From Gammaproteobacteria bacterium (GTDB taxonomy: Bacteria; Pseudomonadota; Gammaproteobacteria; JAUIAT01): 64,000 nt of DNA. The notes under the pieces are model-generated. The model was not told the origin of the DNA, made no database searches, and saw only the letters and a list, made by a program, of their open reading frames with translations. Position 1 is the first letter of the stretch; every line of letters starts with the position of its first letter. The stretch covers positions 426 to 64,425 of the forward strand of contig JAUIAT010000011.1 in the NCBI GenBank assembly GCA_030425295.1, read 5' to 3'. This document shows positions 4,446-6,461 of the stretch, in pieces. A program made the translations under genes and the position numbers.

Positions 4446-6461
4446 GTGTGTGGTATAAACGGATTTATCAACTTCAAAAAAAATCTATCTTCTCCTGAAG
4501 GTTCTCTTCGTAAAATGACTGATAAATTGTATCATCGAGGCCCTGATGATTCTGGTATCTGGTTCGATCCGGTAACAGCGGTTGGTCTCGGTCATCGCCG
4601 CTTATCAATTCTAGACTTATCGTCTGATGGTCACCAGCCTATGTTGTCTAAAAGTGGCAGGTATGTTCTTGTGTATAATGGAGAAATTTATAACTATAAG
4701 TCCCTTTCCCACAGGAAATTTAATGGTGATACAGCAAGTCTTCTTAATTCAATTGATGAAGTTGGTCTTGAAAAAACTCTGCAAAAAATTAATGGTATGT
4801 TTGCCTTTGCCTTATGGGATAAGGCTTCTCGGAAATTATTTCTCGTGCGAGATAGGTTGGGTATTAAACCTTTGTATTATGGGTGGCACAAGGAAAATTT
4901 CTTGTTCGCCTCAGAACTAAAAGCGATTAGAGCTTATCCTGATTATCAGCTTGAGATTAATCGCCAAGCTTTAGCTTTGCAAATGCAATATTTGGCAGTG
5001 CCTGCGCCATATTCCATTGATCTAGGTATTAATAAATTAATGCCAGGGGAGTATCTGGTTTTAGATTATGCATCCAAAAAAGTTAAAACTTATAAGTATT
5101 GGGATCTGCAAAAAATAGCAGAGCATGGTCTTCAGACTCAGCCTAAGCTTTCAGATGGTGAGTTTAAAGCTGCCCTGCACGAGCAGCTGTCGCGCTCGAT
5201 AAAGTATCGTATGATTTCAGATGTGCCTATAGGGGCCTTTTTATCTGGAGGTATTGATTCCTCAATGGTTGCTTCTTTGATGCAGGCGCAAAGTAGTAAG
5301 CCTATTAAGACTTTTTCGATTGGTTTTAACGATGGAAAGCATAATGAAGCTAAGTTTGCTAAGGATGTTGCAAGACATTTGGGTACAGATCATACAGAGT
5401 TTTATGTGGATGAATCTAATGCCATTGACGTTATCCCTAAGCTGCCGAGTCTTTATGACGAGCCTTTTGCGGATGCTTCTCAAATTCCTACATTTCTAGT
5501 TTCACAGTTAGCTAAAAAAAGTGTAACAGTTTCTTTGTCAGGAGATGGTGGCGACGAGTTATTCGCTGGATATAACCGCCATGTGTTTGGACCTAAAATT
5601 CTTACTAAAACTAGCTTTATGCCCAGTTCTTTGCGTAGACTAGCTGGTAGCCTACTCTCAAGTATTTCTGCTGATAGTTGGGATAAGGTTTCAAGGGTCT
5701 TAAAGGTTGATCGAAAGATTAAATTATTGGGTGAAAAGGCTCATAAGTTAGCTAAAGTTTTATCTGCAACTGATATAAATTCTTTGTATTCTCAGGTGAC
5801 GGCATGTTGGGAGCCGGGCTCAAATATTGTTCTTGGTGTTGGTGAATGGATCCCGCGGTCAAGCCGCGGGATGACAGGGAATATAGGCCATGGGACGGCA
5901 GGGGATATAGGTTGGGGGATGTCAGGAAGTGCTAGTTATGGGATGATGGGTGATAGTAGAGAAATGTCATCCCGCGGCTTGACCGCGGGATCCATAACAG
6001 CCCAAATGCAATATCTTGATATGATTAATTATCTTCCCAATGATATCCTCACAAAGGTAGATAGAGCTAGCATGGGGGTTGGGCTTGAGGCGCGAGTACC
6101 ACTTCTTGATCATAACTTGGTTGAATTTGCCTGGCGTTGTCCTCTGTCACTAAAAATTCGCGACGGCAAAAGTAAGTGGTTATTGCGGCAAGTTCTTTAT
6201 GATTATGTGCCAGAAAAATTGATTGATAGGCCCAAGCAGGGATTTAGTGTGCCTATTGAAAATTGGATGCGCAAAGACTTAAAGGATTGGGCGTATGATT
6301 TGATTTCACCAGAAAAAATAAAGTCAGAAGGTTTTTTTGACGAAAAAATTATTTCAAAAGTTTGGCAAGAATTTCAAAGTGGTAAAGGAGCTTGGCACCA
6401 CCATCTATGGAATGTTTTAATGTTCCAAGCTTGGTTTTCAAGCGGTCTGCAGGGAGATTAA
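4446..6461 (+). CDS. asnB: asparagine synthetase (glutamine-hydrolysing) family amidotransferase carrying an in-frame 49-aa palindromic-element insertion
   Basis: N-terminal MCGINGF (Cys2 nucleophile), SGGIDSS PP-loop, and a C-terminal AsnB domain. GTG start. The insertion at 5848-5993 encodes IPRSSRGMT...[10 protein letters not shown]. Confidence 0.8.
   Translation: MCGINGFINFKKNLSSPEGSLRKMTDKLYHRGPDDSGIWFDPVTAVGLGHRRLSILDLSSDGHQPMLSKSGRYVLVYNGEIYNYKSLSHRKFNGDTASLLNSIDEVGLEKTLQKINGMFAFALWDKASRKLFLVRDRLGIKPLYYGWHKENFLFASELKAIRAYPDYQLEINRQALALQMQYLAVPAPYSIDLGINKLMPGEYLVLDYASKKVKTYKYWDLQKIAEHGLQTQPKLSDGEFKAALHEQLSRSIKYRMISDVPIGAFLSGGIDSSMVASLMQAQSSKPIKTFSIGFNDGKHNEAKFAKDVARHLGTDHTEFYVDESNAIDVIPKLPSLYDEPFADASQIPTFLVSQLAKKSVTVSLSGDGGDELFAGYNRHVFGPKILTKTSFMPSSLRRLAGSLLSSISADSWDKVSRVLKVDRKIKLLGEKAHKLAKVLSATDINSLYSQVTACWEPGSNIVLGVGEWIPRSSRGMTGNIGHGTAGDIGWGMSGSASYGMMGDSREMSSRGLTAGSITAQMQYLDMINYLPNDILTKVDRASMGVGLEARVPLLDHNLVEFAWRCPLSLKIRDGKSKWLLRQVLYDYVPEKLIDRPKQGFSVPIENWMRKDLKDWAYDLISPEKIKSEGFFDEKIISKVWQEFQSGKGAWHHHLWNVLMFQAWFSSGLQGD
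5848..5993. mobile_element. MITE-like palindromic element (family A), inserted in frame in the asnB-like CDS
   Basis: 29-bp terminal inverted repeats: GGATCCCGCGGTCAAGCCGCGGGATGACA at 5848-5876 and TGTCATCCCGCGGCTTGACCGCGGGATCC at 5965-5993. The whole element is ~146 bp, equivalent to 49 codons. The host ORF reads through it. Confidence 0.85.

What the first reader, a model, noticed from the sequence alone, without database searches (positions are those of the whole stretch)
5848..5993. Palindromic MITE-like element inserted IN FRAME in an asnB-type amidotransferase gene
A ~146-bp element with perfect 29-bp terminal inverted repeats (GGATCCCGCGGTCAAGCCGCGGGATGACA / its reverse complement) sits inside the asparagine-synthetase-like ORF and is translated as a 49-aa insertion ([11 protein letters not shown]...[10 protein letters not shown]). 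The host reading frame is not broken. This is the hallmark of Rickettsia-palindromic-element (RPE)-type selfish DNA, which here appears to be tolerated inside an essential-type enzyme. The same family occurs again in bioF (finding at 30660-30769), read in the same frame. Family A occupies only five loci here (this copy, 15342, 25103, 30660, 51289), and the other three are intergenic and reversed or solo. That same frame is used in both coding copies suggests selection on how the element ends are read. This is an inference.
Basis: seen in the sequence. Interest (0 to 1): 0.85.

Follow-up and report, generated by a model that had tools for sequence, protein, structure and literature searches.

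The report
Palindromic repeat pair inside two enzyme genes
Two copies of a short hairpin-forming DNA repeat, of a kind already known from Rickettsia and many other bacteria, sit in frame inside an asparagine-synthase-like gene and add a floppy 50-residue loop; it is a clear but ordinary new example.

Summary
Perfect 31-nt inverted arms (5846-5876 and 5965-5995) lie inside an intact 671-codon AsnB-type ORF and are read through as about 50 extra residues. A second copy sits in bioF (30659-30770).

It is not a discrete 146-bp MITE. Each arm is one 30-nt REP unit: TGTC tag, 9-bp stem starting AT, 5-nt loop, CCA tail. This is the CGTC-3/4 architecture of Di Nocera et al. 2013, who equate CGTC-4 with Rickettsia RPE-4. 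The unit also fits the Ssn-related motif (SRM) of the 2025 Ssn nuclease paper.

- **Copies differ inside:** the asnB and bioF copies share only the arms. The asnB interior is a degenerate 4 x 24-nt array.
- **Distribution:** the exact 23-mer core occurs in at least 49 genome assemblies, including Rickettsia, Legionella and Kangiella. About 15% of exact hits lie deep inside long ORFs.
- **Nuclease link:** small GIY-YIG (Ssn-like) genes flank the unit in 13-15 of 111 loci. None is in this window.
- **Structure:** AlphaFold models place both inserts in the main low-confidence, unstructured segment of otherwise folded enzymes.
- **Frame:** the shared reading frame follows from stop codons. Only 1 of 6 frames of the asnB insert and 2 of 6 of the bioF insert are open.

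Verdict: a new member of a known kind, of modest interest.

The parts
4446..6461 (+). Host gene: AsnB-type glutamine-dependent amidotransferase, 671 aa, intact ORF. The insert is aa 468-517.
   Evidence: ORF. Pfam Asn_synthase, GATase_6 and GATase_7. TIGR01536 scores 467 bits against a cutoff of 267. Cys2 and the SGGxDS motif are invariant in A1. AF2 gives pTM 0.79.
5846..5876 (-). Left REP unit. On the minus strand it reads TGTC-ATCCCGCGG-CTTGA-CCGCGGGAT-CCAT. It is translated as (M)[10 protein letters not shown].
   Evidence: Inverted repeat I1. Match to the published SRM motif. Hairpin -12.1 kcal/mol, z -4.5.
5877..5964 (+). Interior of the dimer: a degenerate 4 x 24-nt tandem array in register with the GGGATGACA tail of the left unit. 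It is read as Gly-rich octapeptides GMTGNIGH, GTAGDIGW, GMSGSASY and GMMGDSRE.
   Evidence: Direct-repeat family D1, spacing 24, 75-81% identity. Lag-24 self-match is 0.56, reached at any lag by 3 of 5000 shuffles. TRF does not report it.
5965..5995 (+). Right REP unit, TGTC-ATCCCGCGG-CTTGA-CCGCGGGAT-CCAT, translated as (M)SSRGLTAGS(I).
   Evidence: Hairpin -11.9 kcal/mol, z -5.3.
30158..31414 (+). Second host gene: bioF (8-amino-7-oxononanoate synthase), 418 aa, within bioB-bioF-bioH/C-bioD. The insert is aa 168-205.
   Evidence: Alignment A2 shows a clean gap of about 41 columns in 12 homologues. The match to E. coli BioF structures splits at query residues 158 and 207. In the AF2 model the only segment with pLDDT below 50 is 167-205.
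30659..30770 (.). Second in-frame head-to-head REP dimer. Units are at 30659-30688 and 30741-30770, with a 52-nt spacer unrelated to the asnB spacer that holds a degenerate half-unit (TATCATCCCGGG).
   Evidence: Fold is -44.9 kcal/mol as DNA, z -10.6.
15339..15369 (-). Solo REP unit in the convergent intergenic region between the ClC channel gene and a sugar-porter gene.
25103..25168 (.). Tail-to-tail REP dimer (units 25103-25132 and 25139-25168), intergenic, nested in a composite repeat of about 200 nt.
   Evidence: Fold is -31.4 kcal/mol, z -9.7.
51291..51356 (.). Decayed tail-to-tail REP dimer, intergenic and upstream of priA, inside a second copy of the same composite repeat.

Best explanation
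The element is a head-to-head pair of 30-nt REP-type hairpin units. The units belong to the CGTC-tagged superfamily (the CGTC-3/4 architecture; CGTC-4 is the family equated with Rickettsia RPE-4) and also fit the Ssn-related motif (SRM). The pair is separated by a spacer made of degenerate partial units.

**Shown**
- The unit belongs to a multi-copy family in this window and in at least 49 other genome assemblies.
- The unit forms a stable ssDNA hairpin.
- Both coding copies lie in regions that are variable or absent in homologues.
- Both are predicted to be unstructured loops in otherwise well-folded enzymes whose catalytic motifs are intact.

**Inferred**
- The units arrived by the process that spreads these repeats. 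The literature proposes, but has not demonstrated, that this involves a small GIY-YIG ssDNA nuclease (Ssn) that binds the hairpin and cuts just upstream of the tag, in an IS200/RAYT-like way.
- Copies that land in genes survive only if they fall in a tolerant loop, add a multiple of three bases, and are read in a stop-free frame.
- That filter, rather than any function of the encoded peptide, explains why both copies are read as [10 protein letters not shown]...SSRGLTAGS.
- The proteins most likely remain active, each with an extra disordered surface loop.
For: **Family membership**
- Unit anatomy is TGTC tag, 9-bp stem starting AT, 5-nt loop and CCA tail. This matches the written definition of CGTC families 3/4 (PMC3733652 section 6).
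- R. conorii CGTC-4 (RPE-4) intragenic copies are translated as [38 protein letters not shown] and DTVVKPRYD.
- The published SRM pattern matches 7 sites in the window against 0.06 expected.

**Distribution and coding copies**
- The exact 23-mer is found in more than 111 stretches from 49 assemblies, including the isolates Rickettsia tamurae, Legionella massiliensis and Kangiella aquimarina. The flanks TGG and GAC(A/G) are conserved.
- Of 144 exact hits, 22 lie deep in ORFs of at least 200 codons, and all four open frames are used. Several hosts look like real genes by eye (MnmE, a Ser/Thr kinase, Xaa-Pro aminopeptidase, Mfd, RecG).

**Nuclease link**
- GIY-YIG (PF01541) genes of about 95 aa sit next to the unit in 13-15 of 111 loci. 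In L008, L019, L037, L044 and L070 they are flanked by REP-like units within about 8-40 nt on both sides, some with up to 4 mismatches.
- This matches the NTS-ssnA-NTS architecture and the ssDNA cleavage described in PMC11893778.

**Host proteins**
- AsnB model: residues 462-516 have no secondary structure, and 470-511 have pLDDT below 50 (block means 22-33).
- BioF model: the only low-confidence segment is 167-205.
- More than 150 invariant columns are retained in AsnB. The PLP lysine and the DDAHG motif are retained in BioF.
- Only 1 of 6 (asnB) and 2 of 6 (bioF) frames of the inserts are open, and the inserts are 16-22 GC points above their hosts.
Against: - No empty site or close relative is available. 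The best AsnB homologue is 52% identical, the best BioF homologue 43% and the best UvrB homologue 76%. Insertion is therefore inferred from distant homologues only.
- In asnB the roughly 17-aa native loop is missing. Either the event was more complex than a simple insertion, or the ancestral loop was short.
- No ssn gene or any transposase lies in the 64-kb window. The link to Ssn rests on other genomes and on the literature.
- Mobilisation of CGTC/SRM repeats by Ssn has never been demonstrated. Di Nocera et al. state that CGTC REPs lack a known transposase.
- Expression and activity of the decorated enzymes are untested. A perfect 30-31-bp mRNA stem might lower expression.
Confidence: 0.85

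Rival explanations
1. It is a classical IS-derived MITE. On this view a discrete non-autonomous transposon of about 146-150 bp, with 31-bp terminal inverted repeats, is mobilised in trans by a DDE transposase that recognises those ends and leaves a short target-site duplication.
For: The terminal inverted repeats are perfect and 31 nt long. Possible 2-nt direct repeats flank both coding copies: AT/AT around GGATCC...GGATCC in asnB, and AC/AC around TGG...CCA in bioF.
Against: - The two coding copies share nothing but the 30-nt units, and their interiors differ in length and sequence.
- The same unit occurs solo (15339-15369), in the inverse tail-to-tail arrangement (25103-25168), and in tandem arrays in other genomes. 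That behaviour is typical of REPs, not of a TIR-bounded transposon.
- Each 'TIR' is itself a self-contained hairpin with a tag and a tail.
- No transposase is present in the window.
- The 2-nt repeats are within chance (1 in 16 each), and AT is self-complementary.
Confidence: 0.05
2. The genes are inactivated. The repeat insertions, helped by a very stable mRNA or DNA hairpin, have killed or silenced asnB and bioF, and the ORFs simply have not decayed yet.
For: - The RNA stem of 30-31 perfect base pairs folds at -78 and -76 kcal/mol. It could be an RNase III substrate or a barrier to translation.
- asnB has lost its native loop.
- There are no expression data.
Against: - Both ORFs are full length in an AT-rich genome where stop codons arise easily.
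- All catalytic and invariant residues are retained.
- The inserts are read in the only (asnB) or one of only two (bioF) open frames and add a multiple of three bases. That pattern is expected from purifying selection, not neutrality.
- bioF sits in an otherwise intact bio operon.
- Di Nocera et al. cite evidence that RPE-1-decorated R. conorii proteins are expressed in vivo.
Confidence: 0.07
3. The insert is functional. Either the hairpin units inside the genes act as working sites, or the Gly-rich octapeptide loop has been exapted as a functional protein segment. Candidate site functions are Ssn cleavage or binding sites that modulate recombination or transformation at these loci, or mRNA processing or stability elements.
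For: - In Neisseria, NTS repeats cluster around particular genes and Ssn modulates transformation.
- Di Nocera et al. report that most REPs lie where they would be transcribed and may act as RNA elements.
- The 24-nt periodicity keeps the reading frame.
Against: - The interiors are not conserved between copies.
- Host genes across genomes are unrelated, so no functional theme appears.
- Both segments are predicted to be disordered.
- The same units occur intergenically in the window.
- Nothing here tests function.
Confidence: 0.03

Closest known systems
CGTC-tagged REPs, family CGTC-4, equated with RPE-4 of Rickettsia conorii (Di Nocera et al. 2013, PMC3733652, citing Ogata et al. 2002)
   Same: - The tag is (C/T)GTC, the stem is 9 bp starting AT, the loop is 5 nt and the tail is CCA.
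- Copies are mostly head-to-head dimers, with some singles and clusters.
- Copies lie in frame in real genes. R. conorii NuoL carries WILRSSRGMT, against [10 protein letters not shown] here.
- Repeat clusters encoding 43-82 aa are reported in R. conorii and Thauera.
   Different: - The host is an unsampled gammaproteobacterium with Legionellaceae- and Coxiellaceae-like best hits, not an alphaproteobacterium.
- The stem sequence is the CCGCGG variant.
- The 88-nt spacer is much longer than the reported dimer-encoded stretches of 20-30 aa and is built of 24-nt degenerate partial units.
- The RPE-4 consensus itself could not be read here because Ogata 2002 is not held.
Ssn-related motifs (SRM/NTS) and Ssn GIY-YIG ssDNA nucleases (Nat Commun 2025, PMC11893778)
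   Same: - The unit matches the published degenerate SRM pattern.
- It has the conserved upstream GTC tag and a C directly after the palindrome.
- In other genomes the identical unit flanks small cd10448-like GIY-YIG genes on both sides, as in NTS-ssnA-NTS.
   Different: - No ssn gene lies in this window.
- That paper concerns the nuclease, transformation and the distribution of the repeats. I did not find in-frame coding copies discussed in the parts I read.
- Cleavage of this particular unit is untested.
RPE-1 of Rickettsia (Ogata et al. 2000, as summarised in PMC10969869 and PMC3733652)
   Same: It is palindromic selfish DNA of about 100-150 bp inserted in frame in unrelated metabolic genes, and it is tolerated in the proteins.
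   Different: RPE-1 is a discrete element with a conserved full-length consensus and a conserved encoded peptide. Here only the two 30-nt terminal units are conserved between copies.
REPIN/RAYT systems (GTAG REPs) and Coxiella QMITE2 (PMC3116915, PMC5896051)
   Same: They are inverted doublets of REP hairpins acting as the repeat unit, with a single-copy associated nuclease or transposase gene flanked by REPs. In-frame QMITE2 extensions of genes occur in Coxiella.
   Different: Those carry a GTAG tag and are associated with a HUH Y1 transposase (RAYT) or serve as IS1111 targets. Here the tag is (C/T)GTC and the associated gene in other genomes is GIY-YIG.

Membership tests
CGTC-tagged REP, families 3/4 (Di Nocera 2013) | Unpaired 5' tag CGTC, which the paper says is often TGTC or CCTC | tested here: met
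   All window units carry TGTC. In other genomes the flank is GAC(A/G), which is YGTC on the other strand. Definition read.
CGTC-tagged REP, families 3/4 (Di Nocera 2013) | Stem of 9 bp with A and T in the first and second positions, and a loop of 5 nt | tested here: met
   The unit reads ATCCCGCGG / CTTGA / CCGCGGGAT. The predicted hairpin has 9 pairs and a 5-nt loop.
CGTC-tagged REP, families 3/4 (Di Nocera 2013) | Short unpaired 3' tail, consensus CCA | tested here: met
   CCA follows the stem in the asnB and bioF units and at 25139-25168 (CTA at 15339-15369 and 25103-25132), and in nearly all of the 144 exact hits, where it appears as TGG on the other strand.
CGTC-tagged REP, families 3/4 (Di Nocera 2013) | Multi-copy dispersed family, mostly head-to-head dimers, and mostly intergenic | tested here: inconclusive
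   There are 8 units at 5 loci in 64 kb: 2 head-to-head dimers (both coding), 2 tail-to-tail dimers and 1 solo. The genome-wide copy number is unknown because only this window is available.
CGTC-4 specifically (RPE-4), as opposed to CGTC-3 | Sequence agreement with the family consensus (Figure 2 of the paper; the RPE-4 consensus of Ogata 2002) | tested here: inconclusive
   Figures are not held, and Ogata 2002 is not in the library. Indirect support comes from the R. conorii CGTC-4 peptides WILRSSRGMT and AIPRLDRGI, which equal translations of this unit with 1 substitution, and from the exact 23-mer in Rickettsia tamurae and in a Rickettsia endosymbiont MAG.
Ssn-related motif (SRM), PMC11893778 | Match to HGTCWYN(0-2)YYVSBRHN(0-5)WNVSBRGN(0-2)RNCYNB | tested here: met
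   There are 7 matches in the window against 0.06 expected from Markov simulations. Five are units of this family, including both asnB arms.
Ssn-related motif (SRM), PMC11893778 | A cd10448-type GIY-YIG (ssn) gene in the same genome, flanked by the motif | not testable with these tools
   tblastn finds no ssn homologue in the window, and the rest of the genome is not available. In other genomes that carry the identical unit the feature is met: L008, L019, L037, L044 and L070 have REP-like units (up to 4 mismatches) within about 8-40 nt on both sides, and the protein hits PF01541.
Ssn-related motif (SRM), PMC11893778 | Bound as ssDNA by the cognate Ssn and cleaved just upstream of the tag | not testable with these tools
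   This needs biochemistry.
RPE-1-type Rickettsia palindromic element or discrete MITE | A full-length element of about 100-150 bp whose whole sequence, and encoded peptide, is conserved between copies | tested here: not met
   The asnB and bioF copies share only the 30-nt terminal units. Their interiors are 88 and 52 nt and unrelated.
Classical MITE | Target-site duplication and a related autonomous IS with the same ends | tested here: inconclusive
   Only possible 2-nt flanking repeats (AT/AT, AC/AC) are seen, which is within chance. No transposase was found among ORFs of at least 150 aa in the window.
Asparagine synthase, glutamine-hydrolysing (host gene) | N-terminal Cys nucleophile, GATase domain and Asn_synthase domain with the SGGxDS PP-loop, scoring above the family cut-off | tested here: met
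   Pfam hits. TIGR01536 scores 467 against a cutoff of 267, but the AsnB equivalog NF006949 scores 287 against a cutoff of 499, so that one is not met. C2 and S267-S273 are invariant in A1.

The most novel reading that the evidence does not exclude
The identical 30-nt hairpin unit (TGG-ATCCCGCGGTCAAGCCGCGGGAT-GACR) is shared by at least 49 assemblies labelled Alpha-, Gamma- and 'Delta'-proteobacteria. The adjacent Ssn-like nucleases, by contrast, are only about 50-76% identical to each other.

This could mean that one REP-nuclease module has spread horizontally among bacteria that are often host-associated, and that it routinely seeds new disordered loops in enzymes well outside Rickettsia. 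The coding copies might also act as live Ssn sites that affect recombination or transformation at those genes.
Probability: 0.15. Interest if true: 0.6.

Novelty: new member of a known kind. Interest (0 to 1): 0.3.

Why it matters
The finding shows that protein-coding palindromes of the Rickettsia type are not peculiar to Rickettsia. The same REP family decorates enzymes in an unsampled gammaproteobacterium and, in frame, in long ORFs of many other genomes.

It also links two bodies of literature that I did not see connected for coding copies. One is the CGTC/RPE repeats that are read through as protein. The other is the recently described Ssn GIY-YIG ssDNA nucleases whose cognate hairpins these repeats are.

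Practically, it warns annotators and structure predictors that such 40-50-residue disordered loops are repeat-derived. It also offers two small, testable cases (BioF and an AsnB-like amidotransferase) for asking how enzymes tolerate such inserts. It does not reveal a new kind of element or mechanism.

Tried and rejected
- **Tandem Repeats Finder:** it found nothing on 5700-6150. The 24-nt periodicity is too degenerate for it and was shown by a lag-match shuffle test instead.
- **Source record:** The look-up of encoding contigs for the AsnB protein returned no record. The cluster look-up gave singleton clusters with no names. The organism was therefore placed only through UvrB homologues.
- **Related loci:** none of the 111 REP-bearing loci is closely related to the window outside the repeats, so no orthologous empty site is available.
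- **Empty-site scan:** a metagenome scan with the 22-nt left flank of the asnB copy gave one unrelated low-complexity contig, L112, with no other similarity to the window.
- **Plasmids:** megablast of the arm against plasmids found no match.
- **Literature by sequence:** a search for the unit's sequence found no papers.
- **AsnB homologues near the repeat:** they occur in L025, L066 and L071. By my coordinate check the repeats lie outside those genes, so I treated this as coincidence.
- **Coxiella QMITE1/QMITE2:** QMITE2 is built on a GTAG REP, which is a different superfamily.
- **RAYT or IS200-type transposase as mobiliser:** none is in the window, and the gene associated with the unit in other genomes is GIY-YIG rather than HUH.
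- **Shared frame as a sign of selection on the peptide:** rejected because of the stop-codon pattern and the use of all four open frames elsewhere.
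Full report
**1.

Reading 5700-6150 shows a perfect inverted repeat with 31-nt arms at 5846-5876 and 5965-5995, 88 nt apart.

Each arm contains its own 23-nt hairpin, ATCCCGCGG-TCAAG-CCGCGGGAT. Allowing up to 3 mismatches, this 23-mer occurs 8 times in the window against 0.00 expected.

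The element lies inside an unbroken 671-codon ORF (4446-6461). That ORF has GATase and Asn_synthase domains and scores above the cut-off of TIGR01536. The element is translated as W468-IPRSSRGMT...[10 protein letters not shown]517.

A second pair (30659-30770) lies in bioF (30158-31414) and is read the same way. The other three loci are intergenic.

**2. What the unit is**

Across the window and 111 stretches from other genomes, the conserved block is (c)TGG-ATCCCGCGGTCAAGCCGCGGGAT-GAC(A/G). Read on the other strand, this is:
- a YGTC tag;
- a 9-bp stem beginning AT;
- a 5-nt loop;
- a CCA tail.

That is word for word the description of CGTC-tagged REP families 3/4 in Di Nocera et al. 2013. 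They equate CGTC-4 in R. conorii with RPE-4, report that these repeats are mostly head-to-head dimers, and report that many lie inside genes.

Their supplementary table lists R. conorii intragenic CGTC-4 copies translated as WIPWSNHGMT, WILRSSRGMT (NuoL), [18 protein letters not shown] and DTVVKPRYD. These are the same unit in its four stop-free frames.

The unit also matches the degenerate Ssn-related motif published in 2025: 7 matches in the window against 0.06 expected, five of them from this family.

Each arm is a stable ssDNA hairpin of about -12 kcal/mol, with z -4.5 and -5.3.

**3. It is a REP dimer, not a discrete MITE**

- The asnB and bioF copies share only the terminal units. Their interiors are 88 and 52 nt and unrelated.
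- The unit also occurs solo (15339-15369) and in the inverse, tail-to-tail arrangement (25103-25168 and the decayed 51291-51356).
- In other genomes it also forms tandem arrays.
- The asnB interior is a degenerate 4 x 24-nt array in register with the GGGATGACA end of the left unit. Lag-24 self-match is 0.56, reached at any lag by 3 of 5000 shuffles. TRF misses it.
- This array gives four Gly-rich octapeptides.
- Similar runs of partial units follow full units in other genomes.
- The bioF spacer holds one degenerate half-unit.

**4. Is it an insertion, and is it tolerated?**

*bioF.* Twelve homologues at 43-47% identity all show a clean gap of about 41 columns. The match to E. coli BioF structures splits at query residues 158 and 207.

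*asnB.* The nearest homologues are only about 52% identical. The element sits between the conserved blocks LVxGxxEP and DFTxxMMYLD, where homologues have a variable loop of about 17 aa that is absent here. The net gain is therefore about 29-33 aa, and the event was not a simple clean insertion, or the ancestral loop was short.

*Composition.* Insert GC is 56% and 62%, against 39-40% in the host genes.

*Structure.* In the AlphaFold model of AsnB, residues 462-516 have no secondary structure, and 470-511 (pLDDT block means 22-33) form the longest low-confidence stretch (pTM 0.79). In the BioF model, 167-205 is the only segment with pLDDT below 50 (mean pLDDT 84.6). Both coincide with the inserts.

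*Catalytic residues.* These are retained: Cys2 and SGGxDS in AsnB, and the PLP lysine and DDAHG in BioF.

I found no empty site. None of the repeat-bearing loci is a close relative, and a metagenome scan with the left flank gave only a chance hit.

**5. The shared frame**

One frame of each orientation of the unit contains TGA (GGA TCC ... GGA TGA, and TGT CAT ... GCT TGA).

Over the whole insert, only 1 of 6 frames (asnB) and 2 of 6 frames (bioF) are stop-free, and the host uses one of those.

In other genomes, 22 of 144 exact hits lie deep in ORFs of at least 200 codons. The frames used are:

| Frame reading | Count |
|---|---|
| [10 protein letters not shown] | 5 |
| DPAVKPRDD | 8 |
| SSRGLTAGS | 7 |
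| VIPRLDRGI | 2 |

Several hosts look like real genes by eye: MnmE, a Ser/Thr kinase, Xaa-Pro aminopeptidase (Rickettsia), Mfd and RecG. The same frame in two copies is therefore what a survival filter predicts. It is not evidence for selection on the peptide.

**6. Distribution and the likely partner enzyme**

These include Rickettsia tamurae, a Rickettsia endosymbiont, Rickettsiales MAGs, Legionella massiliensis, Coxiellaceae MAGs, Kangiella, Sedimenticolaceae, Parvibaculaceae and MAGs labelled Deltaproteobacteria.

Clustering the ORFs of these loci brought out small GIY-YIG proteins of about 95 aa (PF01541) in 13-15 loci. In L008, L019, L037, L044 and L070 they are flanked by REP-like units within about 8-40 nt on both sides.

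This association is already published. Ssn nucleases (cd10448) bind their cognate hairpin as ssDNA and cut just upstream of the tag. Their genes are typically flanked by the motif, and the authors note the resemblance to IS200/RAYT-REP systems.

No ssn gene and no transposase lies in this window. Mobilisation by Ssn remains a hypothesis.

**7. Context**

- UvrB's best hits are 71-76% identical and are labelled Gammaproteobacteria, Coxiellaceae or Legionellaceae MAGs. The organism is therefore an unsampled gammaproteobacterium.
- The asnB-like gene follows comB and comA directly and fails the AsnB equivalog model. 'Essential-type enzyme' is not established.
- bioF lies in a complete bioB-F-H/C-D cluster.

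**8. Verdict**

The element is a head-to-head dimer of CGTC-type (RPE-4-like, SRM) REP units with a spacer of partial units. It is read through as a disordered loop in two enzymes.

Both the kind of element and the phenomenon of in-frame REPs are known. The new points are the host lineage, the particular genes, the 50-aa composite with 24-nt periodicity, and the explicit link between coding REPs and Ssn-associated motifs.

I rate it a new member of a known kind, with modest interest.

Noticed in passing
window 2000-2077 (-): There is an Rfam SAM_alpha (SAM-II) riboswitch hit at 39.5 bits against a gathering score of 36. It lies upstream of ORF 857-2008 (-), which has no Pfam hit. This family is mostly alphaproteobacterial, whereas the window looks gammaproteobacterial.
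   Followed up: no
window 2976-4441 (+): comB (2-phosphosulfolactate phosphatase) and comA (phosphosulfolactate synthase) overlap each other and end 4 nt before the asnB-like gene. This suggests a sulfolactate-related pathway that includes an amidotransferase.
   Followed up: partly
window 25020-25236, 51208-51400 and 15300-15450 (reverse): A composite repeat of about 200 nt, with ends resembling cccgagtttcgagtttt / aaaactcaaaactgggg, carries the tail-to-tail REP dimer at its centre. There are three copies or part-copies, all intergenic (alignment A3).
   Followed up: partly
window 25262-25290 (+) and 22058-22082 (+): A second hairpin family with a different stem, TGTCACCCCGCACTTGTTGCGGGGTCTGG, also fits the SRM pattern. 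The copy at 22058 has 3 mismatches and lies just after the aminotransferase gene.
   Followed up: partly
L065 6788-6929, L072 5856-5914 and L022 17-183; also L079, L082, L088, L090 and L096: In other genomes the same unit forms head-to-tail tandem arrays with periods of 41, 36 and 42 nt. It also forms runs of half-units of about 21 nt after a full unit, which resembles the 24-nt array in the asnB insert.
   Followed up: no
L076 2197-4194 (Rickettsia tamurae) and L048 2807-4843: An Xaa-Pro aminopeptidase-like gene carries two to three separate in-frame clusters of these units (for example [10 protein letters not shown]...[10 protein letters not shown] and VIPRLDRGI...[10 protein letters not shown]).
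   Followed up: partly
L079 1499-1786 and 2083-2364: Two Ssn-like GIY-YIG genes lie in tandem in one gammaproteobacterial MAG and are 50% identical to each other.
   Followed up: no
window 35170-36720 (-) and 11574-13136 (-): One ORF has an Ntox11 toxin domain. Separately, there is an MbnB/TglH/ChrH plus DUF2063 gene pair, which looks like a RiPP-type modification pair.
   Followed up: no
window 5841-5849 and 30654-30661: Both coding copies are preceded by the same pentamer GGTGA (GGTGAaTGG and GGTGAcTGG). This may be chance or a hint of target preference. Other genomes show no such flank.
   Followed up: partly
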